A program made the position numbers and the translations under genes. The notes under the pieces were generated by a model. It saw only the letters and a list, made by a program, of their open reading frames with translations, was not told the origin of the DNA and made no database searches. Source: Naegleria gruberi (taxonomy: Eukaryota). From it: DNA of 64,000 nucleotides. Location of the stretch: the NCBI GenBank assembly GCA_000004985.1, contig GG738890.1; one strand, given 5' to 3'. Positions 29,737 through 63,540 of this stretch are shown piece by piece. Position 1 is the stretch's first letter, and each line of letters opens with the position of its first letter.

Positions 29737-31200
29737 TTAAAAACCATCAAAGTTAGTATCACTCAAGTAGGATTGTCTTGATGAGCTTCTACTATCATTG
29801 ACAGGCATAAATTCACAAACAAAATCATTCCACTCAGCAAAAACATTGGCCAACTCCTTGCTCGGATCGCTTCTACCACCAAGAATCATCATTTGGTCAT
29901 CAGAGAAATCGGATGTAGAAACACCATTAGATTGTAAATTGAACATTCTTTCTTCAATTTCAATTTCTCTTCTGATAAATTCATCTTCATCTTGACAATT
30001 ATCAAAACAAGTTTCATCATATGATTCTTGTTGATAGGTTGGTGAGGCAACATCTAATTTACATTCGTATGGAACAATGGCTGAACCTTCACAGAGAAGA
30101 ATTTCCTGTTGGTCAAAGTTGTACACTGACTCGTCAACTAGATCATCTTCCAAGCTAATTGGAGCATTTCTAATATCAAAGTCTTGTCTCTTTTCTGATT
30201 TTATGAGAGGAGCTGATGATGGTCTAATGATAAGTTGTTGTTGACTTGTTGTTGAGGTGGTAATCATTTGGAAAGGATCTTCATTACACAATAAATCACC
30301 TTCGTTGGAGAGGTGACTATCTGTGCTACTAACATTGGAAACACTTCTCTTCTTTCTACTTTGAATACTGGATGAGGAGCTCTTTTTAGCTTCAGTTTCA
30401 AGGGTATCCTTGAGTTTTTCTGGAATTGGAACATTTGAATTACAGGTAATGTTGGTTCTCGAGATTGGTCTACCTTTTCCTTCTTGTTCATACTTTCTAA
30501 GCATGATCCATCTGTGTCTGCATTGAATATCAGTTCTTCCTTGGAATGAATCAGCAATACTCTTCCAAGCACTTTCACCAAATTCTCTGACCTTATCAAT
30601 GAGGATGTTATCTTCCTCTTCATTCCATGGTTTTTTACAAATCTTTGGATTTAAGACTCTCCACCAATGTTGATTACATTGGTCGCTATTCTTTGTGGCT
30701 ACCATCTTGGCAATTTCATTCCACTTCTTTTCACCATACTTTTCAATGGCTTTGAGGAGGAGTTCATTTTCATTCTTGGTCCATCTGTTGCAACTCTTTC
30801 TCTTACCATTGGCACCATCATCAGTTGGTGAAGTTGGTTCCGATTTAACCTTTGGTGGTTTTGTTGATGATTTTGAGGCACTGTTCTTTCTCTTAGTTTT
30901 TGATGTTTTAGTGATGGAATTAATTGGTGTACGAGGGAGGGCAGCAATATCAAAGTCTTCCTCTGGTTCCTTCTTTGGTGGCATTGTTGAAACAACAGAG
31001 GCCATAGCTTTCTGTTGTTGTTGCTGTTGTTGCAAGAGGATGGTTGTATGATTAAGGGAGCTGTACAAAACTGATGAGGTATTACCAAGGACCATATTAA
31101 TAGGAGCTGATGTTATAGTCATTGGTGTTATGGAGGATGAGGATATTTCAATCCCCGAGTTAAGGCCGGTTGGGCTACTGGTTCTAGAACTTTTCACCAT
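29737..31200 (-). CDS. Myb-domain (R2R3-type) DNA-binding protein
   Basis: Two Myb/SANT repeats: RWTKNENELLLKAIEKYGEKKWNEIAKMV...QCNQHWWRVLNP and KPWNEEEDNILIDKVREFGESAWKSIADSF.GRTDIQCRHRWIML. There is a poly-Q tract, and a CAA/CAG repeat at about 31020. Confidence 0.7.
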   Translation of the reverse strand: MVKSSRTSSPTGLNSGIEISSSSITPMTITSAPINMVLGNTSSVLYSSLNHTTILLQQQQQQQKAMASVVSTMPPKKEPEEDFDIAALPRTPINSITKTSKTKRKNSASKSSTKPPKVKSEPTSPTDDGANGKRKSCNRWTKNENELLLKAIEKYGEKKWNEIAKMVATKNSDQCNQHWWRVLNPKICKKPWNEEEDNILIDKVREFGESAWKSIADSFQGRTDIQCRHRWIMLRKYEQEGKGRPISRTNITCNSNVPIPEKLKDTLETEAKKSSSSSIQSRKKRSVSNVSSTDSHLSNEGDLLCNEDPFQMITTSTTSQQQLIIRPSSAPLIKSEKRQDFDIRNAPISLEDDLVDESVYNFDQQEILLCEGSAIVPYECKLDVASPTYQQESYDETCFDNCQDEDEFIRREIEIEERMFNLQSNGVSTSDFSDDQMMILGGRSDPSKELANVFAEWNDFVCEFMPVNDSRSSSRQSYLSDTNFDGF

Positions 31201-32038
31201 TTGATTATCAAATGATTATATTGAAAACGGTTTAAAAAGTAGAGTGTATTTTTCTTGAGGGTCTCAGTTTGTTCAAAACAGAATTGGAGGACGTGTGTTC
31301 TCTTATTGTGTTACGTCTCTTGTTCGTTGTTGCTCTTTGTACAGCGCGGCAACTGTGTGTTGTACTTTTTTTCTATGGATGAAATTGTGTTCCTTAGGCG
31401 GGACTCTTTTAAAACTTAACGTTTATTGAGAAGTTGAGGAAACAATTCTTGAACAAACCGCTCTACCCGAATGTCTCTGGCGCCAAATGAAATTCTTAAC
31501 GCCTCAATGACCATTATGGACTAGCATCTCACCTTATTTGTCTTATTCTGCTCTTCAATTTGTTTTTCCAAGTTGTTGAAAAATTTTGGAGGTAAAAGAA
31601 AAAGTGATGGTGACTGCCGTTGTAGTTTTACTTCTTCAAGAAGAAGCATCATCAATGATCATTAAATTTGATGGTTTTTTATTATTTTAAATGTGAGGTG
31701 ATGAAACAATGTAAATGGGATTTGATGGTTCTTGATGGACTAGATAGGGATGAAATGATTCGGAATGGAATAATTATCGGAAGAAGAGGGTTTAATGGCA
31801 CAACTATTAAATTCTAGATTGTTGTGATTATAATTGAAAAGAATGTGTTTGTTGGGAATTCACAAACAATATTCTTCTAAAAATCCCGTATTTGATATTT
31901 ATGGACATGGTTTGGAATTCACAACTCAAACATTTTGAAAAAATTCATGGTGGAGAGTTGTTCTCTCACAAAACAGTTTCAATCCAACAAAAAAAGCAAC
32001 ACAACAACCTTCTACCTTTCTAAATCCTGCAACTAACA

Positions 32039-32986
32039 ATGAGTCAAACTCAATGCGCAAGAAAATCATGTGCCAGCTCTTCATCTTCCAATGAAGGAGT
32101 TTCCAACACTAAAGAAAACCAAAAAGCAATTGAGTTGGAAATTATTAAAAACAATATTGCAAGATATCATGAAGAAGCACTCGATCAATTGAGAAGATTG
32201 ATTCCAAAACAAAAAGAAGAAGAAACGAAAACAACATTCAATCCATCAGATATTTGGCAAGAGTTGAAATATCCAGAATTTGCTTCTTTGGAAAAGCCAA
32301 GTATTATCACTCAAGCAGATGCTAGTAGTAGAGTGGATAGTGATGTGTCTAGAATTGCTCCATTTGCTGAAACTGAGAGCATGTCCAGGTTTATTGATAA
32401 TAACATTGAAAGAGGGTCTCGTGTCATTGACTGCATGGGAGGATATGGACATGTAGCTATGGCTTGTATCCACGGAGGAAAACGTACAGATTTGGCAGTA
32501 TTTGATCACTTTGAAAACGATGAGAAATCAAGAAGTGTAAGAATGAAAGCAGTACAGAAGAATATGGATCAATATCATACCAAATTTTCAGGAAAGAGAA
32601 AGGCCAACATCTATGAGCATGGGATCCATTTAAAACAAGAGATGAGAATCAACAATGTTTTACTACTGGATGCAAGATTGATCACTGAAAAGCTTGAGAA
32701 AATCATTGAAGATTTTAAGAATTCTAATGCAAGAGAAATAGTGCTCAAGATTCCAATTCATTTCACACTGGCTAATGAGTTTGCTAGTAGGAATCCAGAG
32801 CTGAGAGGTATTGGAATGGTCATGAAGTGTCCAAGTACTAGAATTCACAATGAGACAATGCTTGGAATGGAAGAAGATTTCATTCAATTGCTTATTATTA
32901 GAAAGTTGGTTAAAAAGCAAAACAAGAATGATAGACAACAACAATATTATAACAATGATAGAAGTAAAAAGCAAAAGTATTATTAA
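32039..32986 (+). CDS. Degenerate TGS1-like methyltransferase-fold protein (paralogue of 34481..35563, lacks the PPWG motif)
   Basis: Colinear with the downstream TGS1 gene: RVIDCMGGYGHVAMAC vs IYDATGGIGGNTFGFV; NNVLLLDA vs SLVLIDAPWG; EIVLKIPIHFT vs MVVLKVPMHYS. The catalytic D/SPPWGG motif is replaced. Confidence 0.45.
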   Translation: MSQTQCARKSCASSSSSNEGVSNTKENQKAIELEIIKNNIARYHEEALDQLRRLIPKQKEEETKTTFNPSDIWQELKYPEFASLEKPSIITQADASSRVDSDVSRIAPFAETESMSRFIDNNIERGSRVIDCMGGYGHVAMACIHGGKRTDLAVFDHFENDEKSRSVRMKAVQKNMDQYHTKFSGKRKANIYEHGIHLKQEMRINNVLLLDARLITEKLEKIIEDFKNSNAREIVLKIPIHFTLANEFASRNPELRGIGMVMKCPSTRIHNETMLGMEEDFIQLLIIRKLVKKQNKNDRQQQYYNNDRSKKQKYY

Positions 32987-33179
32987 TAACTAATAAATTG
33001 AAGAGATAATGATTGTAATATTATAAACTGTAAAAAAGAAACAAAACCTAGAATTAAAATTTAAATAGTTTCATCAAAAAATTGTTTATTTCAAATGAAC
33101 CAAAGGACCTGACTGAATGAGTTACATTGAGGATTTAATATTGTTGTTTTATCAAGTTTCAATTCAAGTAGTTGTTTAT

Positions 33180-34310
33180 TTACAAGTCATTTGCCAAATG
33201 TTTGATAATAATTTCTTCATTCTTCTTTCCAAAGTATTGAGCCAATTCATCAAGTTTAACAAATTTAGCTTCACCATACATATCACTATATCCCTTTCTC
33301 AACAATTCTTGGTCCTCATTGGAAAGTTCCTCAAAGATCCAAACCTTTGTGTGAGTGAATAAAGGTAGCTCAACTTGAGATTCTTCAAATGATTCCTGAC
33401 CTGGATCTCTGACCACATAATCATTCAATCTTCCCAATCTAATAGCTGGTAATTCCTTTTTGCCATCAAAATTATTGAGAGATTTGTTCTTTCCTACATT
33501 TGCATATTTCAATCTAAAGAGTTTGTAACACTTATCAATGCTCTTTCCTTCTCCCATTTGTTGAATCTTTTTAGCATTTTCGAAACAATCGAGAATTTCT
33601 GCTAGGATTTGATTGGCCTTGAACTCTTTGAATTTTCTCTCCAATTCTTGAATTCTCTCAAAACTCAAACAGGAAAGTAACAATTTCAAAACGTTACAAT
33701 CAAAGGTTTCATGATTCAAAGGCAATTTTGATTTGGAAAGCTTTCTCAAGGAATAGTCCAATGAACCATATTCGATTGGCTCAGTTTCCTGAACGAGAAA
33801 CTTTTGGTCCTTCTTAATGTAAACTAAAGTACCTTCTGATTCAATAAGAAAGTTAAATGGACTTCTTTCCAACAATTTCAATGACTTTCCAACTTGTGTC
33901 ATTCTGGAACGAAACACTCTAACTTTCAATTGAATCATTTGACCAATCTTGAGTCTCTTGTTGGAATTCTTCTCAGAGCAAACTAATCTAACCGTAGCAG
34001 TATTATCAGAAAGGTAGTAAGCATATTCTTCTGCAAATATTTCAGAGATTACACCTTTAACAAGGAAAATCTTGTCAATTGCCTTTGGTGCTTGGTCAAT
34101 CAGTGAAGCCAAGTTTGAAACCTTCTCTACCAATGGAACAGTTGAGGTTTGCTTGAAATGCTTTCTTTCAGTTACAGTAGTGAGATTATTCTTGTTATTC
34201 GAATCAACTTTTCTGGTTTCAAATTTTTCTTGTGACTCTTGTCTATTAGAATCTTGCTTTTGCTTCTTCTTAATATTCAATGGTTGATTGCTATTCTTAT
34301 TGTCTGACAT
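33180..34310 (-). CDS. Hypothetical basic protein, possible OB-fold
   Basis: 376-aa ORF with an ATG start and a Lys-rich N-terminus. The central block (IFLVKGVISEIFAEEYAYYLSDNTATVRLVCSEK...KIGQMIQLKVRVFRSR) has an OB-fold-like pattern. This is speculative. Confidence 0.35.
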   Translation of the reverse strand: MSDNKNSNQPLNIKKKQKQDSNRQESQEKFETRKVDSNNKNNLTTVTERKHFKQTSTVPLVEKVSNLASLIDQAPKAIDKIFLVKGVISEIFAEEYAYYLSDNTATVRLVCSEKNSNKRLKIGQMIQLKVRVFRSRMTQVGKSLKLLERSPFNFLIESEGTLVYIKKDQKFLVQETEPIEYGSLDYSLRKLSKSKLPLNHETFDCNVLKLLLSCLSFERIQELERKFKEFKANQILAEILDCFENAKKIQQMGEGKSIDKCYKLFRLKYANVGKNKSLNNFDGKKELPAIRLGRLNDYVVRDPGQESFEESQVELPLFTHTKVWIFEELSNEDQELLRKGYSDMYGEAKFVKLDELAQYFGKKNEEIIIKHLANDL

Positions 34311-34480
34311 TTTTTTAAAGTTGAGAAGATTTTCCCTTTGACTTGGTCGTTAATTTTATGGCAAAATGTTGTGAATTCGTTTTTGAATTGTTTGCGTTGT
34401 GAATTCTAAACCTTCAAATGTGAGTAATAAATAGGGATTTTGTTGACATTTTTGATTTTGTTGATTTTTTACTGACAGGT

Positions 34481-35563
34481 ATGAAGGTTTGGAATTCACA
34501 ACGCAAACAATTCATTTTTAATATTAGAATTCTTTTGCCAGAGGCTTTTTTATTCAAAATTAACAAAAAAACAAAACTAAATATGCTTGCTGTAGTTAAT
34601 GAAGGTGTCGAAAGATTGATAAAGGAAGCTGAGAGAAAGAAAGAAGTGGCTTTGCAAGTGAGAAATCTATTCGAAAGTTCAGATGAAATCTCTGATGAAA
34701 TTCTCAAAGAAAGTAAGCAGCTTTGGGAAGAGTTTGGATTCACAGAGGAAATGTCCAAGATTACTAATAGAAAGTTGGCAATTCAAATTTTGCAAATGTT
34801 TGAAGATAAATTGGATGAAATTCTTCTTTTACTTTCTAACAAAGTTAATCCAACACAAGAAGAAACTAAACGAAAGGATAGAGATCCAAAGGTTTCTGAT
34901 TATTTCCATAGGAGAATTCGTTTCGGTATGAAAACAGATAGTGTTGATGCACTTTCGTATGTAACTCCATACAGACAAGCAAGAGATGTTTCTCATCATA
35001 TTTTGAAACAATTCGAAACTCAATTTCATAACATTCCAACTCATATCTATGATGCCACTGGAGGAATTGGCGGAAACACCTTTGGTTTCGTCGATATTCT
35101 CAGAAAATACTATTGCACTCAACAAGTGAATTTGAAAAGTTTCGAAATGGATTCGAATAGATGCAACTGCTTGAGAGATAACTTGAAAGTTTATCTGAAA
35201 GAATATTCCAGACAAGACATGAGAAAAATATCAACTCAAGTACTGGAAGGAAATTTCCTTGAGTTATGGAAAGAAATTCCACAAAACGAAAGAACAAATA
35301 GTTTAGTCCTAATTGATGCTCCATGGGGTAATTCAGATTATTCGAAACATTCGATTATTTACGATTTGTATCTATTCGATAATGAAACTCAGAAGAGTGT
35401 TAATGAAATTTCACATGAATTACTTTACAATGATGGAGTTTCTATGGTTGTGCTGAAAGTTCCAATGCATTATAGTGAAATGAATTTAGTTTCGAATAGT
35501 GAAAAGGTGAAAGTTGAAAGCTATCTCTTGAGAAAGAGTAAATATTTAATCATTTATAAATAA
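34481..35563 (+). CDS. tgs1: Trimethylguanosine synthase (RNA cap guanine-N2 methyltransferase, TGS1)
   Basis: SDYFHRRIRFGMKTDSVDALSYVTPYRQARDVSHHIL matches TGS1 [37 protein letters not shown]. Motif I IYDATGGIGGNTF. The catalytic LVLIDAPWGNSDY matches VVFLSPPWGGPDY. Confidence 0.7.
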   Translation: MKVWNSQRKQFIFNIRILLPEAFLFKINKKTKLNMLAVVNEGVERLIKEAERKKEVALQVRNLFESSDEISDEILKESKQLWEEFGFTEEMSKITNRKLAIQILQMFEDKLDEILLLLSNKVNPTQEETKRKDRDPKVSDYFHRRIRFGMKTDSVDALSYVTPYRQARDVSHHILKQFETQFHNIPTHIYDATGGIGGNTFGFVDILRKYYCTQQVNLKSFEMDSNRCNCLRDNLKVYLKEYSRQDMRKISTQVLEGNFLELWKEIPQNERTNSLVLIDAPWGNSDYSKHSIIYDLYLFDNETQKSVNEISHELLYNDGVSMVVLKVPMHYSEMNLVSNSEKVKVESYLLRKSKYLIIYK

Positions 35564-35627
35564 ATTTCCAAATAAGATTACATAATAAAATCATATCCAA
35601 ATCCACCATTAAATATATTCCTCTTCA

Positions 35628-36638
35628 TTAGTAATATTCTTTAATATCCAAAAGGGGAAGAATTATCTGTCCCATCAAAAACATGTACAACATTATTTTG
35701 TGAGCTTGTTCAGAATCATTAAACTGTTGTTCAAAATAGAGAGAGGAATCCATAGTTTCGTATGCAAATTTCTCAGCCACTTGTTTAGAAATCACTCTCT
35801 TCGTTCGTTCTGCCTTATTTCCAATCAGAACAAACTCTGCAATTTGATCTCTCTCTTTATACATACTCTTCAAACTTTCATACATTGTTTTGGCTGTTGT
35901 GAAGGACTTTTCATTATCAATGGCAAATATTATTGGAATAGTTCTGGATTGACGACTAGCTAATGTCAGAGATGGTACTGAAGGGAAAAATAATCCATGC
36001 TCGTATGAATTATTCTCTCCAATCTTGTAATCCACTTTTAAATATTCAGTCCAATTTCTATGGATTTTATATTTCGCCTTATTGTAAACAACTGTTTCAC
36101 AAAATGTTGATCTTCCAACGTTGAAATCTCCGGCAATATATGAATAATGTTTCTTTTTCTCTTTTGGTTGTTTGGCTTGGTATTCATGAAAGCAAGTGCA
36201 GGAATTTTTCAATTGTTGAACTTGTTTCTGCCACAAATCAGGATCAAATACAACTGACATAGGGCTCCTCACTGTCCTATTATCATTAATTAAGCAACAG
36301 GCAGCTTCATAAACATGAGTTTTGAAATATCTCTTCAAAATCTTTCTGTCCAATATTAAATTTTCATCAATTCTAATATTTTCCATCATGAACAAGTCCA
36401 TCATCATTGAATTATTGAATATTATCCCTTTTCTGTAAATTAATTCTATAACGACTTTCCGAAATGATTTACAAACTCTTAGCAGAGAAAACCAACTCCC
36501 TGAAATGTATTCGAAAATTTCACATAAAATTTCATTTGGAATTTGAATGATTTGGGAGTTTTCTCCGATTGGAGTTGAAGAGAATGAACGTAATGTTTCT
36601 AAAATACATGAAAATGGACCAAGTAACAGTTTGATCAT
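35628..36638 (-). CDS. F-box-like protein with C-terminal degenerate Ras/Rab-like GTPase domain
   Basis: F-box-like IPNEILCEIFEYISGSWFSLLRVCKSFRKVV. The C-terminal IPIIFAIDNEKSFTTAKTMYESLKSMYKERDQIAEFVLIGNKAERTKRVISKQVAEKFAYE matches the Rab G3-G4 region (VYDxTxxESF...LVGNKCD). G1 is degenerate (GDFNVGRST), and G4 is NKAE. The listed ORF starts at TTG; the first ATG is at 36636-36638. Confidence 0.5.
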   Translation of the reverse strand: MIKLLLGPFSCILETLRSFSSTPIGENSQIIQIPNEILCEIFEYISGSWFSLLRVCKSFRKVVIELIYRKGIIFNNSMMMDLFMMENIRIDENLILDRKILKRYFKTHVYEAACCLINDNRTVRSPMSVVFDPDLWQKQVQQLKNSCTCFHEYQAKQPKEKKKHYSYIAGDFNVGRSTFCETVVYNKAKYKIHRNWTEYLKVDYKIGENNSYEHGLFFPSVPSLTLASRQSRTIPIIFAIDNEKSFTTAKTMYESLKSMYKERDQIAEFVLIGNKAERTKRVISKQVAEKFAYETMDSSLYFEQQFNDSEQAHKIMLYMFLMGQIILPLLDIKEYY

Positions 36639-36747
36639 TTTTTTGTTGATTTTACGAGTAAAATAGTTGGAAAGAAAATTGGTGTGACAGTGAAAGTCAA
36701 TGAAATAAGGAACCTTCAAATTGTTTTTCTAGTAGTTTAAAGTTAAT

Positions 36748-39700
36748 TTATTTCTTTGAAATTTCCTTCAAGTAATCCACAAGCAACAAGCCAACATCAT
36801 GTTTAATCTTATCAGTGGCAATCTTGAAAGAACCTAATTTACCCAAACCACCAAATCCTGACTTGGATAAGGTATCATCATAATTAACAGGAGTCTTTGG
36901 TTTAAAGCTCTTTTCCTCAGTTTGTTGCATTATGGTATCAATCAATGTAAGAGAAACCTCGGCAATACGAGTAATATTGGCCTTATTGTAAACATTGATC
37001 ATGTGTGGTAAAATGTCTGGATAAACTGAAATGAAAACAGATGGCAATTTGTGGAAAGCTTCTTGAAGAGCAGAGTAAATGGCAATACGTTCTGTATCCA
37101 TATCAACATGTTGTACAGCTGTGATTAAGAATCTAGTGAAGAGAAGTGGAGTGAATGAAGATGAAGAGAAGGTCTTGTCATTGAAGAATACCTTTCCACC
37201 CAAAATTTGGCAAAGTTTTTCAAAGTCTGATGGAATCAAGAGAGCAATGAAACCAAGAATTGAATAATAGAATTTGATGCTGGATTCACTGATAATCTTT
37301 GGTGTGGATGGAAGTGAGGATCCTTCCATAGAAACAGGTGAGCTTGCAGTTGAGAGGTCTGATTGAGAGGAACTTTGCAATTGAGGTTGGTCAATAGAGC
37401 TCAGACCATCTTCTTCTTCTCCCAACATTAACATACGATTGTGTTGCAATCTGGCAGATAAGGTAATGAGATTGGCACAAATGTTGGCAGTGGTGGACTT
37501 TGTTTGTGCATTGGTGAGACCTCTCATCAACAAACAACTCAAAGCAAATGAAAAGTGAGTACGGAAACTAACACCAATGGAAACTTCAACCTTTGTAATC
37601 ACGTTATCAATAAGGGAACCAGAAACACGACAATAACTATTAAAGTATTCTTCGATGGAAATACATTTTTGGAATTGTGGACTGGCACCAACAGCATTCA
37701 AAACACAATCGAACAAGTGAACTACAGCAGGGAATAATGATTCATCACTCAATGCCAATAGCACAATTGGAATGGCAAATACTTGCTTGAGAATTGGTTC
37801 ATCAGGTGAGAGTTTGTAACTGTACTGACCCAAGCACAACAAGGTGGCAATCTTATAGTCAGTACGGAAAGCAGCAGTATGTTCATTGTTTGCAGAGAAA
37901 CTATCAATGAGACGTTCAACAACAAATGGAAGAGTTTCTTGTGTTTCTTCGCCTGGTTTGATGAGTACACCATACATAGCCAAAAGTCTTGGAAGGAAGA
38001 CTGGATTAGTCTTCAAGGCCTTGGAGTGACACATTTGAGTGAGTTCCTTATGCCAACGTTTTTGAATTTCTGGGTCGACCAAATAACAAGTCTTGGTAAC
38101 TTCATAAAAGTAGTGAGCAAGAGTTTCCAAATCCCACATGTTAATTGGTGAAATCTTGAATGGCTTTTCCTTCTTGGCAGGTGTTGTACCATCATTTTCA
38201 AAAGAAACAAATGGATCCATATCACGAGCTCCATCAGTACCCATAAACATGAATTGGAATTTGTCAGAGACTAGGGTATTCAAATGTTGTTGCATAATCT
38301 TCTTGTGTTCATTCGTAAAGTCCAAACTAGTGGAGAGTGAGTGAACAACATTGATAGCAAAGCCACGAATAGTAGCACGTAAGAACATTGATCCTCTTCC
38401 AATCATCATTGAAATAATGTAGAAGAGAGTTGGGAAGTTGTCCAAAACGGAGATTCTGTTTTGGAAACTTAACATGAGCAAGAATCTGCTATAGATAATA
38501 ACCTTAGCCCAACCTGGATGTTCTTCAAGAGGTTCAACAACTTCGTGAATTTCATTATCCATAACATCCAACAATTGATCAACAATCATCTTGACAACAG
38601 CAGGAGCATGACCACCTGAAGCCAATGTAACAACCAAATCATTCAAAATATCAACCTTCTTGGACATCTTTGGTCCTGCTTCGTGAGCAGCACTAATAAT
38701 ACATCTCATGGCAATATCAACAAGAGCACCATCCTTTGAAAGTTCTCCCCAAATTTCACTCAAAACAGCAGGATAAATATCTTGGAAGTCAATGGTGGAC
38801 TTGACCAAATCAGGGAACCACTCAGTGGTTCTATCAATTTGAACTTGAGCTTCAAAGTTACTCATCATACTTCCACCAATGATAGACATTTCATAATTTG
38901 CTCCCTTCATTTCAGAGTTCATTTGTTGAACTGGTTGTTGTTTGGAATCATTAGCTTGAGCATAAATCATGGACAAATTCTTAATCCATGGCTTCATGTA
39001 CTTCAATACCAAGTACTTGTATGGCAAACTGACCTTGTTGAAACCACGCAATGCTTCACGAAGGAATTGAGTGGTCAACAAAGGTTTAGCCTTGCTGACT
39101 TGTTCAGATAATGCAACAACCAAGTCACCAGTATTGTGAGGAACACAAATAATATCAGTTTCTAATAAGGTAACTGGGAATTCAAATTGTTCAGCAAGAG
39201 CAGCCAATAAATTGTAAGCTTCGGATCTAGTTCTTGGGAATTTAGATTCCAAGTTGAGGAAACACATGTTAAGTAAAGAACCTGGAATATCTTGTTGACG
39301 AATACCTTCAGCACGTTCTCTACCAACTCTGTCGTCGAGAGTGGCTTCACTCTTTTGTCTGAAAATGGAATTTCTAATATTCATCAAAAGCAAGTCATTC
39401 TTTTCGGCCTTGATCATCAACTTGTTATTACTACCATATTCAACAGAGACATGTTCAGTGTTACCAGCATTTGTTGAAATGGTGGCATGTGAAATTGAAA
39501 GTAATTCAATAAAGTCAATTCTCTTGGTATCGTGGTTGAGAATATTATCTGAGGTAATAACACACAAATACTTCTTTGAAACCTTAACGACAGCATCCTT
39601 CTTTTCACCACGTTGTGAAAGAATGAAAGCAGAGCTGAATGTTGATTCAACATCACGTTCATAATCAAGAGTTGATTGTGGAAGGTCGATATTCTTTCTT

Positions 39701-42700
39701 TCAATATATTCTTCCAATTCACGAACAGAGATACAGAAAGAAACCTTCTTCTTGATAGCCTTTCTCTTAACATAGGAGAACTTTTGAGAGAGGTGAGTCT
39801 TGAGATAGGAATTTGGATTAAAGATGATGGTTCTGGCGCAATTCTTACGAGCACCAGTTGGTAAAGTCTTGAAGAAGTTAACAATGTGGCCAGCTTGAAG
39901 ACCTGTTTCTTCACGTAAACCAGTAACATCAACAACAACTTCGTATGGTTTAGTCCAGAAATTCATCAAAGTCTTAAAGATATGGTACATGACCTTGTCA
40001 TCTTCCTTATCTCCTGTACTTTCAGCAAAGTGAGATCCCAAGTTTTGAGTGATAAAGTAAAAGACTGGTCTTGCTTCCTTGCTTGCACCAGATCTGTAGA
40101 AGATCTTACGTTCTTCAATTACGCTCAAATCCTTATCCTTATTGTCACTAATGAGTTGAATGAGATGAGGAGTGCTATATTCTTCAGAAGCTGAGGCCAT
40201 AGTTGTCTTCTTGACTTCCTTTTCTGGAGGTTTACCCAACTCTGTCATTATAACTTGCATACGTTCAATAGATTCTGCCAATTTCTTTGGGTCAGTAACT
40301 GGAGAAATGATTGAAAGATCACTATCGTCAATAGTCTTTCTGGTATCCATCTTTTGAGTAGATTGTTGACCTGAACGTTGGAGTTGTACCAATCTTTGTT
40401 GCATCTTTTCCATGTTATTGAAGAGGAATCTGTGAACACACAAGAAGTTTTCTTCACGAACTTCATCTTCCATAATAAATTCAGCTTCTTTGAAATCATC
40501 AGGGCACTTGGAAGAAACAGAGTCAAAGAATTGACGAGCTCTATCAAAGTTCTTGGCAACGAATGGATCCATCTTGACCATGAAAGCTTCCTTATTAAAA
40601 CTCTTGGCATCAGAGGCACTTTGTTTTCTTTCAAATTTGATACCATTGGCAACGTTTTGCAACAATTTGGAAATCAACAATAAACATCTGGAAGCTTCAG
40701 CAGTTGGTGATTGATCTACGAGACCAGAAGTCTTTGGAGAAACAATAGCTGGATTCAACAAACGCAAGAACAACAAACCACCAACAACAACGTGTTTGGT
40801 AGAGTGTCTTTCTTCGTCATCATAAACTGGTGGGAATTTGTTATTAACAGATTCTGCCAAATAATTACAAAGATAACGAATTTGAAGTGGGAGCTCATCA
40901 ACAGAAGTAAAGACATGTTCAAGGAAAGCTTGAGCAGTGGCAGCTAATAATGTAGCATTCTTTTCAACAGCTTCATTTGGTTTCAACTTGGTTTCATCTA
41001 CTTCGAAATTACCAGGATCAGAAACAACCTTTTTTACAAGTTCAGACAATGTATCAACAATATACTTGAATCCAACAGAGTTACAATAAGCTGTCAACAT
41101 CTTCGAAGCAGAACTGTTTGCTCTGAAAAGAGTAGAGGAAGAAGATGTTGCATCAACCTCCTTATCAATAGATCTCTTCAATAATTCCAAAGCTTTACCT
41201 CTTTCAGCAAATAATCTGATGAGTGCCTTACACAAGTCATCCATTTCATTTACAGAAACACTTGATACCATCAAGAAGACCAAATCCAAGTTTGGATCTT
41301 GAATTAAGAGATTGAGAAGCTTGTCGTACTTCTTTACACTTTCAGTATTTTGCTCTTCTTCCAATTGAATACCTTGTTTCATGACACGAGTTAATACACT
41401 CAAGAAGGCAGAACGAGTTTCTTGATCTTCAATATAGGTCATCTTCATGAATTGTTCGAGACCGTAGTTAATATTAGACTCGAGCAAATTACCCAAAGAC
41501 AAGATGGTATATTCACGCAATTGTGGATGAGCATCCTTATCAACCTTGGATCTTGTCAAGTATCTTGAGAGGAATGAGAAGTGCTTGATGAATTCACGCT
41601 TGTTCATATCATCATTCTTTTCACCATTTCCAGCCGATTGTTTATCACGAACTTTGGTAAAGTTCAAATCCTTGAGAACAGCAGAAATTGCCTTCATACA
41701 CAAAGCATCCAAGTTAGGGAAATCAAGTTCAACAACTGATGTTGTACTACTGGCAGCTGTCTTGTTGACGAATTCACTAGTCCATTCAGTAATGTGTCTC
41801 AAAGCTTCAAATCTGAACATAATTTCATTGTTAAAGGTGATATATTCCTTACGCTTCATCATGATATCAATCAAGATACATAATTTACACTTGATAACGT
41901 TATAATCCTTATTCAAAACCAATTGGGAACAATAACGAATAAAGCTCAAAATGAGAGTTTCAAACTTGGCCATGGCTAAATCTTCAGAATTTTCTTGGGC
42001 TTGTTCAAGGACAGAACGAACAATGTGAATGGCCTTTTCTACGAATAAAGTAGAAGAGGAAGAAACACGAACAATGGAAGCACCTTCTTCAAAACATCCA
42101 GAAACATAACTGTGCAAAGATTGGAACAAGACACCATATAGTGAAGGAGCCAACTCTGTACCAATAGTTTGAGCAACATTGTCACGAATGAGTGGAACAT
42201 CACTCACAACCAATCTCATCAAATTTCTAATCAAATCATCCTTCATGGAAAAGTCCTTCTTTTCCTTCTTGAGAGTGGTACCACCACGAACTCCTCTAGC
42301 AGATAAACTACCATCATTAGTACTGTCATCTGAACCTTGATCCTTGATTGGAACTGGATTGTTGGATGGATTCAATAAAGTTTCACTTGATTGTAAGCAA
42401 ACACCACCCATAGAACATAAGAATGCTGTATAGTTCTTCCACAAGTTCTTCAAACGAGTATGTTCAACTAATCTGGCATCATCAATGAGTTCCTTATTTC
42501 TAATTGAACCTTCCTCGAGAGTTTTGGTAAAGTCCTTCCAACGAGAGTACATTTCAATGAAAGCAGCCAAGTTGGCCTTTGTTTGCAATTCAACACGACG
42601 CAAGAGACGACGAATTGATTTTTGTTGGTGATTTCTGGTTTTACCTAGTTCATCCAATTTAGAAATCTTACGATAGAGTTGATAATTTTGAGCAATACCA

Positions 42701-49400: not shown

Positions 49401-49672
49401 CAAGAATATCGAGAAAGAGTGGTGGTACTGACACTATCAATGAAGGTGGTCCATCTGATGCCAACTTGTCAAACAATTTCGGTCCAACCTATCGTCAAAT
49501 TATTGATCATGCCAATCCAGAAAGCTCAGTATTTATAATGCCAATGGGTCAATCAGGAAATATCTTTTCTGACACGTACGATAATTACTTACAAGCATGG
49601 GAAGATGGTAAATACATTCCAATGAAAACTAAGGATTATATTGTTAGGGATGTTTTGATAATTGCCAAATAA
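46403..49672 (+). CDS. Penicillin amidase (penicillin/cephalosporin/AHL acylase, Ntn-hydrolase S45) family protein with N-terminal TM anchors
   Basis: Alpha-subunit block FTQGFVHAQERLWQIDTLKS...GELSSLFG. Beta-subunit N-terminal nucleophile context SNNWVIGGAYTSTGKPLHANDIHL. N-terminal hydrophobic helices VVIWWVVAIAISSVLFFVPLIYLIATIPHLIAICNSLFAFVVLSLVGFFLILAVWVGIMI. Confidence 0.8.
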   Translation: MMMANVTPNTKQSRKNKMANNRSSPSSVVIWWVVAIAISSVLFFVPLIYLIATIPHLIAICNSLFAFVVLSLVGFFLILAVWVGIMIRDMNKNVVNKTTKRSVLEEEVDEGRLNDYQRTFGNQARLLNGGGDDEMSGEEYDDDDEESLIQQQQGNNELVMEESNRAANLIEETRRNQQYKQTTEYIVQFLRVGSFLIFIVLLIGLLLFSIWIGTTKSRAEGLLRGSMSINEIVTRANAGDVSYKEAQPYIQKFLEQLGQSTVKVERDSNDVIHITAPNEYTLYFTQGFVHAQERLWQIDTLKSTIKGELSSLFGYGLIFSDQYYLTMGLYEAAQRDWANLGDDLKQRLEAYAYGLNTYAKLLPGLPVEFQLLSYKPGVFTGVDILAHHKYISLTLAGNIHSEIARYGLELVGLSYDRIKTILPNSYPNGFPIISSPNANITYQPSSTTSSTTSRSSSSSTRKKSLSASISVLAGQIISGLEDLVDIFSSSSTIRQRFALSMFDPQNHFSSPEQKNAFLQASNNWVIGGAYTSTGKPLHANDIHLHFQGPNIFLLMHLKIESSTKPMQVIGASIAGLPCVIVGRNGNGISWSITNAGADTMDTYLIDENADGLTYNYGGAKNSYTIKTVTLSVKGGSKAMFNVTTAGSFGPLVDKLYNIPNLPKQKRLALRYLDVLLKTDKSTQTFFDLPYTTNYDQFIEAFKNLNAPVLNILYADNNNNIGYIMAGKLPKRGSTTTDNLGLRPVKTYDSTEKSYTWETDDSGNYKTNAFDDLPDIAPEVATSRFIFSANNKAEANPVTTITNDYSLLYGRSMRIQSLVSSLIARKNITLSDMAKVQSDSVSVLYLMNRNIFARMKPFTDTYKEGVRNDLANNWDGDMKPDSKYATIFEYWMTYLTNLAANETKQDNDLPFSKKKSFPLSLRYALSAIQTELSTGVTDQNCKSFSSDKTCLGYAKDQLEAVLVALRSKFSFVPLYSSYRIHQTKFTHPIFGAYGLTGCLGTRISRKSGGTDTINEGGPSDANLSNNFGPTYRQIIDHANPESSVFIMPMGQSGNIFSDTYDNYLQAWEDGKYIPMKTKDYIVRDVLIIAK

Positions 49673-59833: not shown

Positions 59834-59882
59834 GTTATTGAAGATGATAGGATAGTTTGAACTTTATCGTGTAACGATGATA

Positions 59883-62830
59883 NNNNNNNNNNNNNNNNNN
59901 NNNNNNNNNNNNNNNNNNNNNNNNNNNNNNNNNNNNNNNNNNNNNNNNNNNNNNNNNNNNNNNNNNNNNNNNNNNNNNNNNNNNNNNNNNNNNNNNNNNN
60001 NNNNNNNNNNNNNNNNNNNNNNNNNNNNNNNNNNNNNNNNNNNNNNNNNNNNNNNNNNNNNNNNNNNNNNNNNNNNNNNNNNNNNNNNNNNNNNNNNNNN
60101 NNNNNNNNNNNNNNNNNNNNNNNNNNNNNNNNNNNNNNNNNNNNNNNNNNNNNNNNNNNNNNNNNNNNNNNNNNNNNNNNNNNNNNNNNNNNNNNNNNNN
60201 NNNNNNNNNNNNNNNNNNNNNNNNNNNNNNNNNNNNNNNNNNNNNNNNNNNNNNNNNNNNNNNNNNNNNNNNNNNNNNNNNNNNNNNNNNNNNNNNNNNN
60301 NNNNNNNNNNNNNNNNNNNNNNNNNNNNNNNNNNNNNNNNNNNNNNNNNNNNNNNNNNNNNNNNNNNNNNNNNNNNNNNNNNNNNNNNNNNNNNNNNNNN
60401 NNNNNNNNNNNNNNNNNNNNNNNNNNNNNNNNNNNNNNNNNNNNNNNNNNNNNNNNNNNNNNNNNNNNNNNNNNNNNNNNNNNNNNNNNNNNNNNNNNNN
60501 NNNNNNNNNNNNNNNNNNNNNNNNNNNNNNNNNNNNNNNNNNNNNNNNNNNNNNNNNNNNNNNNNNNNNNNNNNNNNNNNNNNNNNNNNNNNNNNNNNNN
60601 NNNNNNNNNNNNNNNNNNNNNNNNNNNNNNNNNNNNNNNNNNNNNNNNNNNNNNNNNNNNNNNNNNNNNNNNNNNNNNNNNNNNNNNNNNNNNNNNNNNN
60701 NNNNNNNNNNNNNNNNNNNNNNNNNNNNNNNNNNNNNNNNNNNNNNNNNNNNNNNNNNNNNNNNNNNNNNNNNNNNNNNNNNNNNNNNNNNNNNNNNNNN
60801 NNNNNNNNNNNNNNNNNNNNNNNNNNNNNNNNNNNNNNNNNNNNNNNNNNNNNNNNNNNNNNNNNNNNNNNNNNNNNNNNNNNNNNNNNNNNNNNNNNNN
60901 NNNNNNNNNNNNNNNNNNNNNNNNNNNNNNNNNNNNNNNNNNNNNNNNNNNNNNNNNNNNNNNNNNNNNNNNNNNNNNNNNNNNNNNNNNNNNNNNNNNN
61001 NNNNNNNNNNNNNNNNNNNNNNNNNNNNNNNNNNNNNNNNNNNNNNNNNNNNNNNNNNNNNNNNNNNNNNNNNNNNNNNNNNNNNNNNNNNNNNNNNNNN
61101 NNNNNNNNNNNNNNNNNNNNNNNNNNNNNNNNNNNNNNNNNNNNNNNNNNNNNNNNNNNNNNNNNNNNNNNNNNNNNNNNNNNNNNNNNNNNNNNNNNNN
61201 NNNNNNNNNNNNNNNNNNNNNNNNNNNNNNNNNNNNNNNNNNNNNNNNNNNNNNNNNNNNNNNNNNNNNNNNNNNNNNNNNNNNNNNNNNNNNNNNNNNN
61301 NNNNNNNNNNNNNNNNNNNNNNNNNNNNNNNNNNNNNNNNNNNNNNNNNNNNNNNNNNNNNNNNNNNNNNNNNNNNNNNNNNNNNNNNNNNNNNNNNNNN
61401 NNNNNNNNNNNNNNNNNNNNNNNNNNNNNNNNNNNNNNNNNNNNNNNNNNNNNNNNNNNNNNNNNNNNNNNNNNNNNNNNNNNNNNNNNNNNNNNNNNNN
61501 NNNNNNNNNNNNNNNNNNNNNNNNNNNNNNNNNNNNNNNNNNNNNNNNNNNNNNNNNNNNNNNNNNNNNNNNNNNNNNNNNNNNNNNNNNNNNNNNNNNN
61601 NNNNNNNNNNNNNNNNNNNNNNNNNNNNNNNNNNNNNNNNNNNNNNNNNNNNNNNNNNNNNNNNNNNNNNNNNNNNNNNNNNNNNNNNNNNNNNNNNNNN
61701 NNNNNNNNNNNNNNNNNNNNNNNNNNNNNNNNNNNNNNNNNNNNNNNNNNNNNNNNNNNNNNNNNNNNNNNNNNNNNNNNNNNNNNNNNNNNNNNNNNNN
61801 NNNNNNNNNNNNNNNNNNNNNNNNNNNNNNNNNNNNNNNNNNNNNNNNNNNNNNNNNNNNNNNNNNNNNNNNNNNNNNNNNNNNNNNNNNNNNNNNNNNN
61901 NNNNNNNNNNNNNNNNNNNNNNNNNNNNNNNNNNNNNNNNNNNNNNNNNNNNNNNNNNNNNNNNNNNNNNNNNNNNNNNNNNNNNNNNNNNNNNNNNNNN
62001 NNNNNNNNNNNNNNNNNNNNNNNNNNNNNNNNNNNNNNNNNNNNNNNNNNNNNNNNNNNNNNNNNNNNNNNNNNNNNNNNNNNNNNNNNNNNNNNNNNNN
62101 NNNNNNNNNNNNNNNNNNNNNNNNNNNNNNNNNNNNNNNNNNNNNNNNNNNNNNNNNNNNNNNNNNNNNNNNNNNNNNNNNNNNNNNNNNNNNNNNNNNN
62201 NNNNNNNNNNNNNNNNNNNNNNNNNNNNNNNNNNNNNNNNNNNNNNNNNNNNNNNNNNNNNNNNNNNNNNNNNNNNNNNNNNNNNNNNNNNNNNNNNNNN
62301 NNNNNNNNNNNNNNNNNNNNNNNNNNNNNNNNNNNNNNNNNNNNNNNNNNNNNNNNNNNNNNNNNNNNNNNNNNNNNNNNNNNNNNNNNNNNNNNNNNNN
62401 NNNNNNNNNNNNNNNNNNNNNNNNNNNNNNNNNNNNNNNNNNNNNNNNNNNNNNNNNNNNNNNNNNNNNNNNNNNNNNNNNNNNNNNNNNNNNNNNNNNN
62501 NNNNNNNNNNNNNNNNNNNNNNNNNNNNNNNNNNNNNNNNNNNNNNNNNNNNNNNNNNNNNNNNNNNNNNNNNNNNNNNNNNNNNNNNNNNNNNNNNNNN
62601 NNNNNNNNNNNNNNNNNNNNNNNNNNNNNNNNNNNNNNNNNNNNNNNNNNNNNNNNNNNNNNNNNNNNNNNNNNNNNNNNNNNNNNNNNNNNNNNNNNNN
62701 NNNNNNNNNNNNNNNNNNNNNNNNNNNNNNNNNNNNNNNNNNNNNNNNNNNNNNNNNNNNNNNNNNNNNNNNNNNNNNNNNNNNNNNNNNNNNNNNNNNN
62801 NNNNNNNNNNNNNNNNNNNNNNNNNNNNNN
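59883..62830. other. Assembly gap (run of N, 2948 bp)
   Basis: Contiguous N characters. The ORFs translated across it (the X-runs) are artefacts. Confidence 0.99.
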
Positions 62831-63540
62831 TCGGAGTGGTTTTACATCATGAAACCACCAAACTTTCACATCATCATCTCAACATGATCTATATAGTAGT
62901 AATAATAGTAATTTTTATTGGTGGATTATCATCATGAAATTGGAATTTATTTTTCATGATGGAAAATCATAAGTTGGTGTTCCATCATCGGATCATTCAC
63001 CAACATCATCATTATTGTTTTCCATTAATAATAATGTATAATTTCGAGTCTTGTAGCATAATTTGTGAAAATAATGGATATCTATTATTGGATTGTGATT
63101 ATAAATTTGGAATTTAATTTTGACTTTCACAAATTCAAGTTGGTAAGCCATCATCGGAGCAACTACCAACCATCATCATTGTTATTTATCATCATTATAA
63201 TAGTAATATTTGTGGAAATAAATCTGATAATAGTAATATTTTAATGAAATTCAATGTTTTCACTAAAATCATCATCACTGCCAGATTTATATGATAATTT
63301 GGAAAACTTTCAATCTAGTATTGTTCAGCATGGTCAATTCCATCAGGTAAAATCACTTCCGAACATTTCCCTATTGGTTATCATGATGATAGGTACATGT
63401 ATATTTTCAACATGTGCCTGGACCATATCCCAACATGTACTTCAACTTGGAAAATGTCTTTCGGGTTATTCATGGTCACCAATCATGATTCATGCCAAAA
63501 GTACACAGCCAATCATCTTGAAACATTAATAAACATTTAG
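62831..63540. repeat. Subtelomeric (telomere-associated) repeat containing an internally duplicated ~45-bp motif
   Basis: The unit aagttggt..ccatcatcgga.c...accaac..tcatcatt occurs twice (about 62965 and about 63140). It is homologous to 21361..21870 and directly abuts the terminal simple repeat. Confidence 0.6.

What the first reader, a model, noticed from the sequence alone, without database searches (positions are those of the whole stretch)
32039..35563. TGS1 cap-hypermethylase gene next to a degenerate paralogue that has lost the PPWG catalytic motif
Gene 34481..35563 carries the TGS1 hallmarks (GGIGGNT motif I, DAPWGNSDY catalytic loop, conserved WFSVTPE-like upstream block). Gene 32039..32986, 1.5 kb away on the same strand with one unrelated gene between, is colinear with it, but D-A-P-W-G is replaced by LLDARLITE. 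This suggests a local duplication followed by loss of catalysis, leaving a pseudo-methyltransferase that might bind cap or RNA.
Basis: partly seen in the sequence, partly recalled or inferred. Interest (0 to 1): 0.5.

Follow-up and report, generated by a model that had tools for sequence, protein, structure and literature searches.

The report
Divergent cap methyltransferase plus possible dead paralogue
In this Naegleria gruberi segment one gene really is a very divergent member of the RNA-cap guanine-N2 methyltransferase (TGS) family, which public annotation already says, while the claim that its neighbour is a decayed copy of it rests on weak, borderline similarity; all three adjacent genes share an upstream DNA element.

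Summary
The window is Naegleria gruberi nuclear DNA. Both ORFs exist exactly as described and equal the RefSeq models.

**Gene B (34481..35563)** is a real but very divergent TGS-family methyltransferase.
- It scores 29.3 bits on Pfam PF09445 (cut-off 22).
- hhalign against 119 canonical TGS1 proteins gives Prob 95%, E 3.6e-8.
- It keeps the AdoMet residues and a D-A-P-W...Y cap-stacking loop, as in Giardia Tgs2 (DPPW, Glu after strand 2).
- It lacks the Lys and Arg that hold the cap triphosphate in human TGS1.
- UniRef already names it "Trimethylguanosine synthase".

**Gene A (32039..32986)** is an intact orphan gene with normal codon usage.
- It has no homologue among 1.84 billion representative proteins and no Pfam hit.
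- It has no profile match to TGS1 (hmmsearch -6.7 bits; hhalign Prob 6%).
- Its colinear similarity to B is marginal: BLASTP E 0.007 and shuffle tests p 0.005-0.013, but only about 0.1 after correcting for all window proteins.
- It shares several rare B-type residues, and the cap-binding loop is absent.
- Paralogy is plausible (about 50%) but unproven, and cap binding is unlikely.

**New observation:** A, B and the gene between them each carry a conserved 28-33-nt upstream element. All six exact copies of its 10-mer core in the 64 kb lie in this 2.7-kb stretch, which suggests co-regulation.

The parts
34481..35563 (+). Gene B: divergent TGS-family (cap guanine-N2) methyltransferase, XP_002673490.1 / D2VR58_NAEGR, 360 aa as annotated
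   Evidence: ORF. Exact match to the RefSeq/UniRef entry named 'Trimethylguanosine synthase'. Pfam PF09445 29.3 bits against a cut-off of 22. hhalign against 119 canonical TGS1 proteins gives Prob 95%, E 3.6e-8 over 135 columns.
34583..34585 (+). Met35 of B: probable true start codon (inferred)
   Evidence: The shared upstream element (34482-34514) lies inside codons 1-12 of the annotated ORF. In A and C the same element sits 75-130 nt upstream of the ATG. Codon-usage signal of codons 1-34 is weak and too short to decide.
34874..35374 (+). B residues 132-298: region aligned to the canonical TGS1 profile (N-terminal extension, motif I, motif IV)
   Evidence: hhalign. The Pfam match covers residues 188-296.
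35060..35080 (+). B motif I, GGIGGNT (residues 194-200), AdoMet binding
   Evidence: Asp191, Gly195, Gly197, Gly198 and Asn199 match invariant TGS1 columns.
35315..35341 (+). B motif IV loop DAPWGNSDY (residues 279-287): catalytic Asp, m7G-stacking Trp282, Tyr287
   Evidence: Residue roles come from PMC2709555 and PMC1865056.
32039..32986 (+). Gene A: orphan 315-aa protein, XP_002673489.1 / D2VR56_NAEGR; candidate degenerate paralogue of B
   Evidence: ORF. Exact RefSeq match. No homologue in 1.84e9 representatives. In-frame codon usage +0.30 bits/codon against -0.25 and -0.76 out of frame; chance of such an ORF 6.6e-11. Weak colinear similarity to B.
32429..32449 (+). A residues 131-137, DCMGGYG: motif-I-like remnant with TGS-type spacing D-x3-G-x-G (followed by H138-V139 instead of G-N)
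   Evidence: Alignments.
32663..32689 (+). A residues 209-217, LLDARLITE: position of motif IV. D211-A212 align with B D279-A280; the PWGxxDY loop is missing.
33180..34310 (-). Gene C: orphan 376-aa protein between A and B, XP_002673582.1 / D2VR57_NAEGR; function unknown; carries the same upstream element
   Evidence: ORF. No Pfam hit. No PDB match. No similarity to A or B (p about 0.5). Codon usage is coding-like.
31909..31941 (+). Upstream element copy 1 (GGTTTGGAATTCACAACTCAAACATTTTGAAAA), about 100 nt 5' of the ATG of A
31851..31865 (+). Partial second copy of the element core upstream of A (GTTGGGAATTCACAA)
34384..34416 (-). Upstream element copy 2, about 75 nt 5' of the ATG of C (minus strand); left arm of a 33-nt inverted repeat. 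A further core copy lies at 34369-34378 (-).
   Evidence: Inverted repeat I1, 97% complementary, 65-nt spacer.
34482..34514 (+). Upstream element copy 3, about 70 nt 5' of Met35 of B; right arm of the inverted repeat

Best explanation
Gene B encodes a fast-evolving, highly divergent member of the Tgs family. This family is the AdoMet-dependent methyltransferases that methylate the exocyclic N2 of the m7G cap of small nuclear and nucleolar RNAs. B most resembles the 'DPPW/Glu' type of Giardia Tgs2. It probably still binds AdoMet through Asp191, Gly-Gly-Asn199, Glu222, Asn234 and Thr162. It probably stacks m7G on Trp282 of its D-A-P-W loop, with Asp279 as proton acceptor. It lacks the Lys and Arg that hold the cap triphosphate in human TGS1, so its substrate contacts may differ, and whether it adds one or two methyl groups is open. 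Gene A is a real, selectively maintained protein-coding gene. It is most likely an old tandem copy of a B-like gene that kept the Rossmann core and part of motif I but lost the whole cap-binding and catalytic loop. That would make it a non-catalytic methyltransferase-fold protein, not a cap binder. A, B and the unrelated gene C between them each carry the same 28-33-nt upstream element. The three are therefore probably transcribed under common control and may work together, for example with A as a structural or regulatory partner of B. What is shown: B's family membership, A's intact-gene status, and the non-random clustering of the element. What is inferred: A's descent from B, its inactivity, the co-regulation, and any partnership.
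Confidence: 0.5

Rival explanations
1. Gene A is an unrelated lineage-specific orphan gene. Its resemblance to B would be a chance alignment helped by a glycine-rich patch. B would be a stand-alone divergent Tgs enzyme, and the shared upstream element would reflect only local co-regulation or a small repeated element.
For: There is no profile match of any kind for A. hhalign A against B gives Prob 1.4%. Window-wide tblastn gives E 0.56. Another unrelated window protein scores p 0.012 against A. A is an orphan among 1.84e9 representatives. Gene C is unrelated to both A and B yet carries the same element.
Against: The best local and global alignments fall exactly on the methyltransferase core, in register with motif I, the Asn-x3-Tyr helix, strand 4 (LLDA/LIDA) and strand 5 (VLKIPIH[F]/VLKVPMH[Y]). 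They also share several residues that canonical TGS1 never has. A ranks first against a B+TGS1 HMM among 324 sequences. The two genes are adjacent and on the same strand.
Confidence: 0.38
2. Gene A is a still-active class I methyltransferase with a different chemistry or substrate. It would have diverged from a B-like ancestor or from another methyltransferase family, rather than being a dead pseudoenzyme.
For: A keeps the acidic residue and two glycines of motif I (D131, G135, G137). It keeps an acidic residue at the position that binds the AdoMet ribose (E159) and the Asn175/Tyr179 pair. O- and C-methyltransferases do not need the (D/N/S)PP(W/Y/F) motif (general knowledge of class I methyltransferases).
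Against: No Pfam methyltransferase family is detected, even weakly. G703/N704 of motif I are replaced by His-Val and Thr673 by Ala; in human TGS1 and Giardia Tgs2 these residues are important for AdoMet contacts (PMC2709555, PMC1865056).
Confidence: 0.07
3. The repeated 33-nt element and its inverted-repeat arrangement belong to a small mobile or hairpin-forming element (MITE-like or hairpin-RNA locus), not to a promoter. The apparent link between the three genes would then be incidental.
For: The arms at 34384-34416 and 34482-34514 are 97% complementary with a 65-nt spacer. As RNA the region folds at -61 kcal/mol, z = -10.9. It gives weak sub-threshold hits to miRNA-precursor models.
Against: The copy upstream of A is a solo arm without a partner. 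Every copy points toward the adjacent gene at a similar distance from its ATG. The Rfam scores are far below gathering thresholds (37.8 against 98). No copy was found elsewhere in the window or in JGI metagenome contigs.
Confidence: 0.05

Closest known systems
Giardia lamblia Tgs2, with the Trichomonas vaginalis Tgs and mimivirus Tgs: cap guanine-N2 methyltransferases of the DPPW type that add a single methyl group
   Same: B has Asp (not Ser) at the first position of motif IV and Glu (not Asp) at the end of strand 2, as in Tgs2 (140-DPPWGGVDY, VAIE91). It also has the same Thr, motif I Asp, Asn, Trp, Tyr and Pro that are essential in Tgs2 (PMC1865056; PMC2709555; PMC2588526). Like Tgs2 it is a small protein that is little more than the methyltransferase domain plus a short N-terminal part.
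   Different: B has Ala for the first Pro (DAPW), Asn-Ser for Gly-Gly after the Trp, and Met-His for the Arg-Asn after the conserved Pro. It has a 26-aa insertion after strand 2 and helix B, and about 100 extra N-terminal residues. I could not retrieve Tgs2 sequences, so there is no direct alignment or phylogeny. The number of methyl groups B transfers is unknown.
Canonical Tgs1/TGS1 (human TGS1, PDB 3GDH; yeast Tgs1), Pfam PF09445
   Same: B matches the family profile above Pfam's threshold and matches 119 canonical members by hhalign. The match covers the N-terminal extension (Y-[WF]-x2-R-x-R), VTP, D-x3-G-x-G-G-N-T, N-x3-Y, P-W-G-x2-D-Y and the strand 5 Pro.
   Different: B scores only 15 bits against a canonical-TGS1 HMM on which true members score 240-360 bits. 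PDB phmmer does not find 3GDH with B. The equivalents of K646, F655, W669, S671, F804, R807 and N808 are changed. Gene A does not match this family at all.
Catalytically inert methyltransferase-fold partners of active methyltransferases, such as the vaccinia virus D12 subunit of the D1/D12 cap N7-methyltransferase (also METTL14 with METTL3 and Trm6 with Trm61, from general knowledge)
   Same: If A is a degenerate copy of B, it would be another methyltransferase-fold protein without an active site, encoded next to and probably co-regulated with an active cap methyltransferase. D12 is a degenerate 2'-O-methyltransferase fold without a proper AdoMet site that allosterically stimulates D1 (PMC4615557).
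   Different: No interaction between A and B has been shown. A's fold is not independently established. D12 is not a paralogue of its own partner's family, whereas A would be.

Membership tests
Tgs / RNA cap guanine-N2 methyltransferase (PF09445): gene B | Significant match to the family profile above the curated threshold | tested here: met
   PF09445 scores 29.3 bits (30.6 for the domain alone) against a cut-off of 22. hhalign against 119 canonical members gives Prob 95%, E 3.6e-8.
Tgs / RNA cap guanine-N2 methyltransferase (PF09445): gene B | AdoMet-binding motif I (h-h-D-x3-G-x-G-G-N/D) and an acidic residue at the end of strand 2 | tested here: met
   IYD191ATGGIGGN199 and FE222. Glu at this position is what Giardia Tgs2 uses (PMC1865056).
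Tgs / RNA cap guanine-N2 methyltransferase (PF09445): gene B | Motif IV (S/D)-P-P-W-G-G-x-D-Y with the m7G-stacking Trp and the phosphate-binding Tyr | tested here: met
   D279-A-P-W282-G-N-S-D-Y287. It is a variant with Ala for the first Pro; the equivalent P141A mutant keeps 30% activity in Tgs2.
Tgs / RNA cap guanine-N2 methyltransferase (PF09445): gene B | N-terminal extension (K-Y-W...F...W-F-S-V-T-P-E) that completes the cap pocket | tested here: inconclusive
   The segment is aligned (D140-Y-F...R-x-R-F...Y-V-T162-P-Y), and Thr, Tyr and Pro are kept. The equivalents of K646, W669 and S671 are changed.
Tgs / RNA cap guanine-N2 methyltransferase (PF09445): gene B | Strand 5 motif F-L-P-R-N (Arg binds the cap phosphates, Asn fixes the loop) | tested here: not met
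   B has K326-V-P328-M-H330, so only the Pro is kept. The alanine mutants keep 8% and 11% activity in human TGS1 and 73% and 18% in Giardia Tgs2.
Tgs / RNA cap guanine-N2 methyltransferase (PF09445): gene B | m7G-dependent, AdoMet-dependent methyl transfer to cap N2 | not testable with these tools
   This needs recombinant protein and a methyltransferase assay.
Tgs / RNA cap guanine-N2 methyltransferase (PF09445): gene A | Significant match to the family profile | tested here: not met
   Pfam gives no hit at E<=10. The custom TGS1 HMM scores -6.7 bits. hhalign gives Prob 6% over 25 columns. The B+TGS1 HMM scores 6.9 bits, E 0.06.
Tgs / RNA cap guanine-N2 methyltransferase (PF09445): gene A | AdoMet-binding motif I and the strand 2 acidic residue | tested here: inconclusive
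   VID131CMGG135YG137 keeps Asp and two Gly with TGS-type spacing, and E159 aligns with the ribose-binding acid. However, Gly-Asn is replaced by His138-Val139.
Tgs / RNA cap guanine-N2 methyltransferase (PF09445): gene A | Motif IV with the stacking Trp and Tyr; Thr of VTP | tested here: not met
   After L-L-D211-A212 the P-W-G-x2-D-Y loop is absent, with no Trp or Tyr. The Thr equivalent is Ala107.
Class I (Rossmann-fold) AdoMet-dependent methyltransferase fold: gene A | Seven-stranded beta-alpha-beta core | tested here: inconclusive

The most novel reading that the evidence does not exclude
A, C and B form a lineage-specific, co-regulated three-gene module in Naegleria. In it, a Tgs2-like cap N2-methyltransferase (B) with altered triphosphate contacts would work with its own catalytically dead paralogue (A) as an obligatory structural or targeting subunit, by analogy with D1/D12 or METTL3/METTL14. 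The unknown protein C would join them, and all three would be driven by a shared 33-nt promoter element. The module might act on a non-canonical set of capped RNAs or make a dimethylguanosine cap.
Probability: 0.12. Interest if true: 0.55.

Novelty: new member of a known kind. Interest (0 to 1): 0.3.

Why it matters
If A is truly a dead copy of B that works with it, this would be the first case of a Tgs-family cap hypermethylase paired with a pseudo-enzyme paralogue. It would extend a theme known from other RNA methyltransferases (D1/D12, METTL3/METTL14, Trm61/Trm6) to cap N2 methylation, in a free-living excavate whose RNA-cap biology is essentially unstudied. B's unusual active-site periphery has an Asp and Glu as in Giardia Tgs2, lacks the Arg and Lys for the triphosphate, and has Lys where human TGS1 has the Phe proposed to accommodate the first methyl group. 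That makes it a useful natural variant for asking what decides one versus two N2 methylations. The shared upstream element gives a concrete, testable candidate for a Naegleria cis-regulatory motif. As it stands, however, the solid part (B is a TGS-family gene) is already annotated, and the interesting part (A) is not demonstrated.

Tried and rejected
- **PDB sequence searches** with B (full length and domain), A and C found nothing relevant: designed proteins, PPR repeats and a retroviral Env at noise level.
- **Word-index homologue searches** of A and B returned only themselves and a 97%-identical strain variant of B.
- **Exhaustive HMMER search** of A against 1.84e9 representatives returned only A itself.
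- **Metagenome contigs:** a scan with B found no relative, and a scan with the upstream element found nothing.
- **Viral contigs:** scans with A and B found no relative, so nothing points to a giant-virus origin.
- **Single-sequence AlphaFold of A** failed with pLDDT 38.6, so no fold search was run on that model.
- **The afdb50 library** was unavailable, so my model could not be compared with the public AlphaFold model of D2VR56.
- **Rfam on 31000-36000** gave only sub-threshold hits: generic hairpin matches to miRNA models on the inverted repeat, and weak C/D snoRNA-like hits.
- **Literature search** for Naegleria plus trimethylguanosine found nothing relevant.
- **Rejected: A is a decayed pseudogene.** The ORF is intact, has in-frame codon bias and is far too long to arise by chance.
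- **Rejected: A is related to C, or B to C.** The p value is about 0.5.
- **Caveat on seeds:** They served only as search seeds. The human one agrees with every residue number quoted in PMC2709555, and all family members used afterwards are database proteins.
Full report
**What the window is.** Gene A (32039..32986, +, 315 aa) is 100% identical to a 'predicted protein' of Naegleria gruberi. The three genes of interest are RefSeq models on a 350-kb scaffold:
- A = XP_002673489.1 / D2VR56.
- C, the middle gene (33180..34310, minus strand, 376 aa) = XP_002673582.1 / D2VR57.
- B (34481..35563, +, 360 aa) = XP_002673490.1 / D2VR58. UniRef already names B 'Trimethylguanosine synthase'.

The neighbours are ordinary nuclear genes. 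They include a Myb factor, an F-box/Ras-like protein, a 2833-aa RasGAP + CRAL/TRIO protein, a BEACH protein, a penicillin amidase and an EGF-repeat protein. The window is about 33% GC.

**Checking the observation.** B contains GGIGGNT (35060..35080), DAPWGNSDY (35315..35341) and a YVTPY block. A reads LLDARLITE (32663..32689) at the aligned position. More precisely, LLDA aligns with B's LIDA, and the following P-W-G-x2-D-Y loop is missing. A is about 20 residues shorter than B between strands 4 and 5.

**Gene B is a real but very divergent Tgs-family methyltransferase.**
- It passes Pfam PF09445 (29.3 bits, cut-off 22; residues 188-296).
- I collected 119 canonical TGS1 proteins. The human seed reproduces every residue number quoted in PMC2709555.
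- hhalign of B against that family gives Prob 95%, E 3.6e-8 over 135 columns. The match runs from the N-terminal extension through motif IV.
- B is nevertheless remote. It scores 15 bits on an HMM where members score 240-360 bits. Sequence search of the PDB does not recover human TGS1 with B.

I mapped the functionally tested residues of human TGS1 (PMC2709555) and Giardia Tgs2 (PMC1865056) onto B.
- Kept: T673 (Thr162), D696 (Asp191), G703/N704 (Gly198/Asn199), N731 (Asn234), W766 (Trp282), Y771 (Tyr287) and P806 (Pro328).
- Changed conservatively, in the Giardia Tgs2 manner: D719 to Glu222 and S763 to Asp279. Published data show S763D is 97% active, and Tgs2 uses Glu91 and Asp140.
- P764 to Ala280: the equivalent P141A mutant keeps 30% activity.
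- Lost: K646 (Asp140), R807 (Met329), N808 (His330) and F804 (Lys326).

So AdoMet binding and m7G stacking look intact. The triphosphate contacts and the pocket proposed for the first methyl group differ.

A second N. gruberi-like strain is available as metagenome contig L001, which is 99.2% identical over 33607..42393. In it B shows 10 non-synonymous and 8 synonymous changes overall, but only 2 non-synonymous against 4 synonymous in the methyltransferase domain. The RasGAP gene shows 2 against 15. B is therefore fast-evolving with a constrained catalytic domain.

**Gene A is a real gene, but an orphan.**
- A 315-codon ORF has a chance probability of about 7e-11 at this composition.
- Its in-frame codon usage matches the other genes: +0.30 bits/codon against -0.25 and -0.76 out of frame.
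- It is therefore not a decaying pseudogene.
- It has no homologue with E<=0.001 among 1.84 billion representative proteins.
- It has no Pfam hit, even at E<=10.

**Is A a degenerate copy of B? Evidence for.**
- BLASTP A against B gives 23.5 bits, E 0.007.
- Composition-preserving shuffles give p 0.0055 for the local alignment and 0.008-0.013 for the global one. The control pairs A-C and B-C give p about 0.1-0.9.
- B is the best match to A among 24 window proteins.
- A ranks first of 324 sequences (window proteins plus 300 shuffles) against a B+TGS1 HMM, though at only 6.9 bits.
- The alignment is in register with the methyltransferase landmarks:
  - VIDCMGGYG against IYDATGGIG, sharing the TGS-type spacing D-x3-G-x-G.
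  - N-x3-Y in helix B.
  - LLDA against LIDA on strand 4.
  - IVLKIPIHF against VVLKVPMHY on strand 5.
- At columns that are at least 95% conserved in 41 canonical TGS1 sequences, A and B share residues that none of the 41 have. These are Cys to Gly in motif I, D719 to Glu, F761 to Leu, S763 to Asp, P764 to Ala, F804 to Lys and N808 to His.
- Re-aligning 150 shuffles of A reached the observed count of such shared residues once.

**Is A a degenerate copy of B? Evidence against.**
- There is no profile-level signal. The canonical TGS1 HMM gives -6.7 bits. hhalign against the family gives Prob 6% on motif I only. hhalign A against B gives Prob 1.4%.
- The positive tests all sit near p 0.005-0.01 and are not independent of each other.
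- Corrected for the 24 proteins compared, the result is about 0.1. tblastn across the whole window gives E 0.56. Another, unrelated protein reaches p 0.012.
- Structure prediction does not settle the question. The single-sequence model was useless (pLDDT 38.6).
- A model guided by an alignment of A with B and 41 TGS1 proteins gave a seven-stranded class I methyltransferase core, with pLDDT 70-87 for residues 110-260.
- Because I imposed the alignment, this is consistency and not proof.

I put descent of A from a B-like gene at about one half. If it is true, A has lost the Trp, the Tyr and the Thr, and most of the N-terminal-extension residues that build the cap pocket. Residual AdoMet binding (D131, G135, G137, E159) cannot be excluded.

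**A new observation links the three genes.** The 10-mer GAATTCACAA occurs six times in the 64-kb window, and all six copies lie within 31856-34501. The expected number is 0.76, and 0 of 100 shuffles reached six. The copies belong to a longer element, GGTTTrGAATTCACAACkCAAACAwTT, which is present exactly three times:
- 31909-31941 (+), about 100 nt upstream of A's ATG, with a partial second copy at 31851-31865.
- 34384-34416 (-), about 75 nt upstream of C's ATG, with an extra core copy at 34369-34378.
- 34482-34514 (+).

The last two copies form a 33-nt inverted repeat that is 97% complementary with a 65-nt spacer, lying in the divergent C-B intergenic region. Each copy points toward its gene. 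The coding sequences of A and B are near saturation, so a 27-33-nt stretch at 85-97% identity must be either selectively maintained or recent. The simplest reading is a shared cis-regulatory element, which would make A, C and B a co-regulated trio. This is inference, since there are no expression data.

A consequence concerns B's start. The third copy lies inside codons 1-12 of B's annotated ORF, so B's true start is probably Met35 (34583).

The alternative is that the inverted repeat is a MITE-like or hairpin-RNA element. It folds at -61 kcal/mol with z = -10.9. I consider this less likely, because A's copy is a solo arm and the Rfam hits are far below threshold.

C itself has no Pfam or PDB match and no similarity to A or B. 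Its function remains unknown.

**Comparison with what is known.** B works like, and passes the membership test for, the Tgs family. It has the Asp/Glu signature of Giardia Tgs2, an enzyme that adds only one methyl group. Trichomonas Tgs and the mimivirus Tgs also add a single methyl group (PMC2588526, PMC4615557). B fails the F-L-P-R-N feature and part of the N-terminal extension. A fails the family tests, so it is not a Tgs-family member. At most it is a relic.

The closest functional analogy for a relic kept beside its active relative is the class of inert methyltransferase-fold partners. An example is vaccinia D12, a degenerate 2'-O-methyltransferase fold that allosterically activates the D1 cap methyltransferase (PMC4615557). 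No interaction between A and B has been shown.

**Verdict.** The shared upstream element is the most solid new finding. Interest is modest at 0.3, and the finding is at best a new member of a known kind.

Noticed in passing
window 31851-31941, 34369-34416, 34482-34514: A 28-33-nt element (GGTTTrGAATTCACAACkCAAACAwTT) sits upstream of each of the three adjacent genes A, C and B and points toward each gene. All 6 exact copies of its 10-mer core in the 64-kb window lie within this 2.7-kb stretch (0.76 expected). It is a candidate shared promoter or regulatory motif.
   Followed up: yes
window 34481-34585: The annotated start codon of B (34481) lies 1 nt before the upstream element, so the element occupies codons 1-12. 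The true start is probably Met35 at 34583. If so, the RefSeq model XP_002673490.1 may be 34 codons too long.
   Followed up: partly
window 34384-34514: The C-B intergenic region holds a 33-nt inverted repeat, 97% complementary with a 65-nt spacer. As RNA it would fold at -61 kcal/mol (z -10.9). It gives only sub-threshold hits to miRNA-precursor models. It could be a bidirectional promoter architecture or a hairpin or MITE-like element.
   Followed up: partly
window 33180-34310 (-): Gene C is a 376-aa orphan with a basic N-terminus and no Pfam or PDB match. It evolves fast between two strains (10 non-synonymous and 6 synonymous changes in 704 nt) and shares the upstream element with A and B. 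Its function is unknown.
   Followed up: partly
L001 (ENA ERZ929261 metagenome contig, 8789 bp) = window 33607-42393: An environmental metagenome contig is 99.2% identical to the window, so it comes from a second N. gruberi-like strain. Substitution density is very uneven: 1.6-2.3% in B and C against 0.3% in the RasGAP gene.
   Followed up: yes
window 33090-33200 (+): There are weak, sub-threshold C/D-box snoRNA-like hits (snoZ162 at 25 bits against a threshold of 45; snoZ5) in the convergent A-C intergenic region. No convincing C box is visible by eye, so this is probably chance.
   Followed up: no
window 35628-36719 (-): This ORF combines an F-box-like domain with a C-terminal partial Ras-family domain (profile positions 69-148 only), which is an unusual combination. 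The mechanical ORF starts at TTG, and its exact sequence is not in the protein collection, so the reference gene model differs.
   Followed up: no
window 46403-49672 (+): A 1089-aa ORF gives a very strong penicillin amidase match (PF01804, E 1.4e-150). This is a typically bacterial enzyme family in a eukaryotic genome, so it is a possible horizontal transfer.
   Followed up: no
window 36748-45249 (-): A 2833-aa single-exon ORF has RasGAP and divergent CRAL/TRIO domains, which is neurofibromin-like architecture. It is under strong purifying selection between strains (2 non-synonymous against 15 synonymous changes).
   Followed up: no
window 59883-62830: A run of N marks an assembly gap. The long 'ORFs' listed across it (59864..62869 and 59877..62852) are artefacts.
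   Followed up: no
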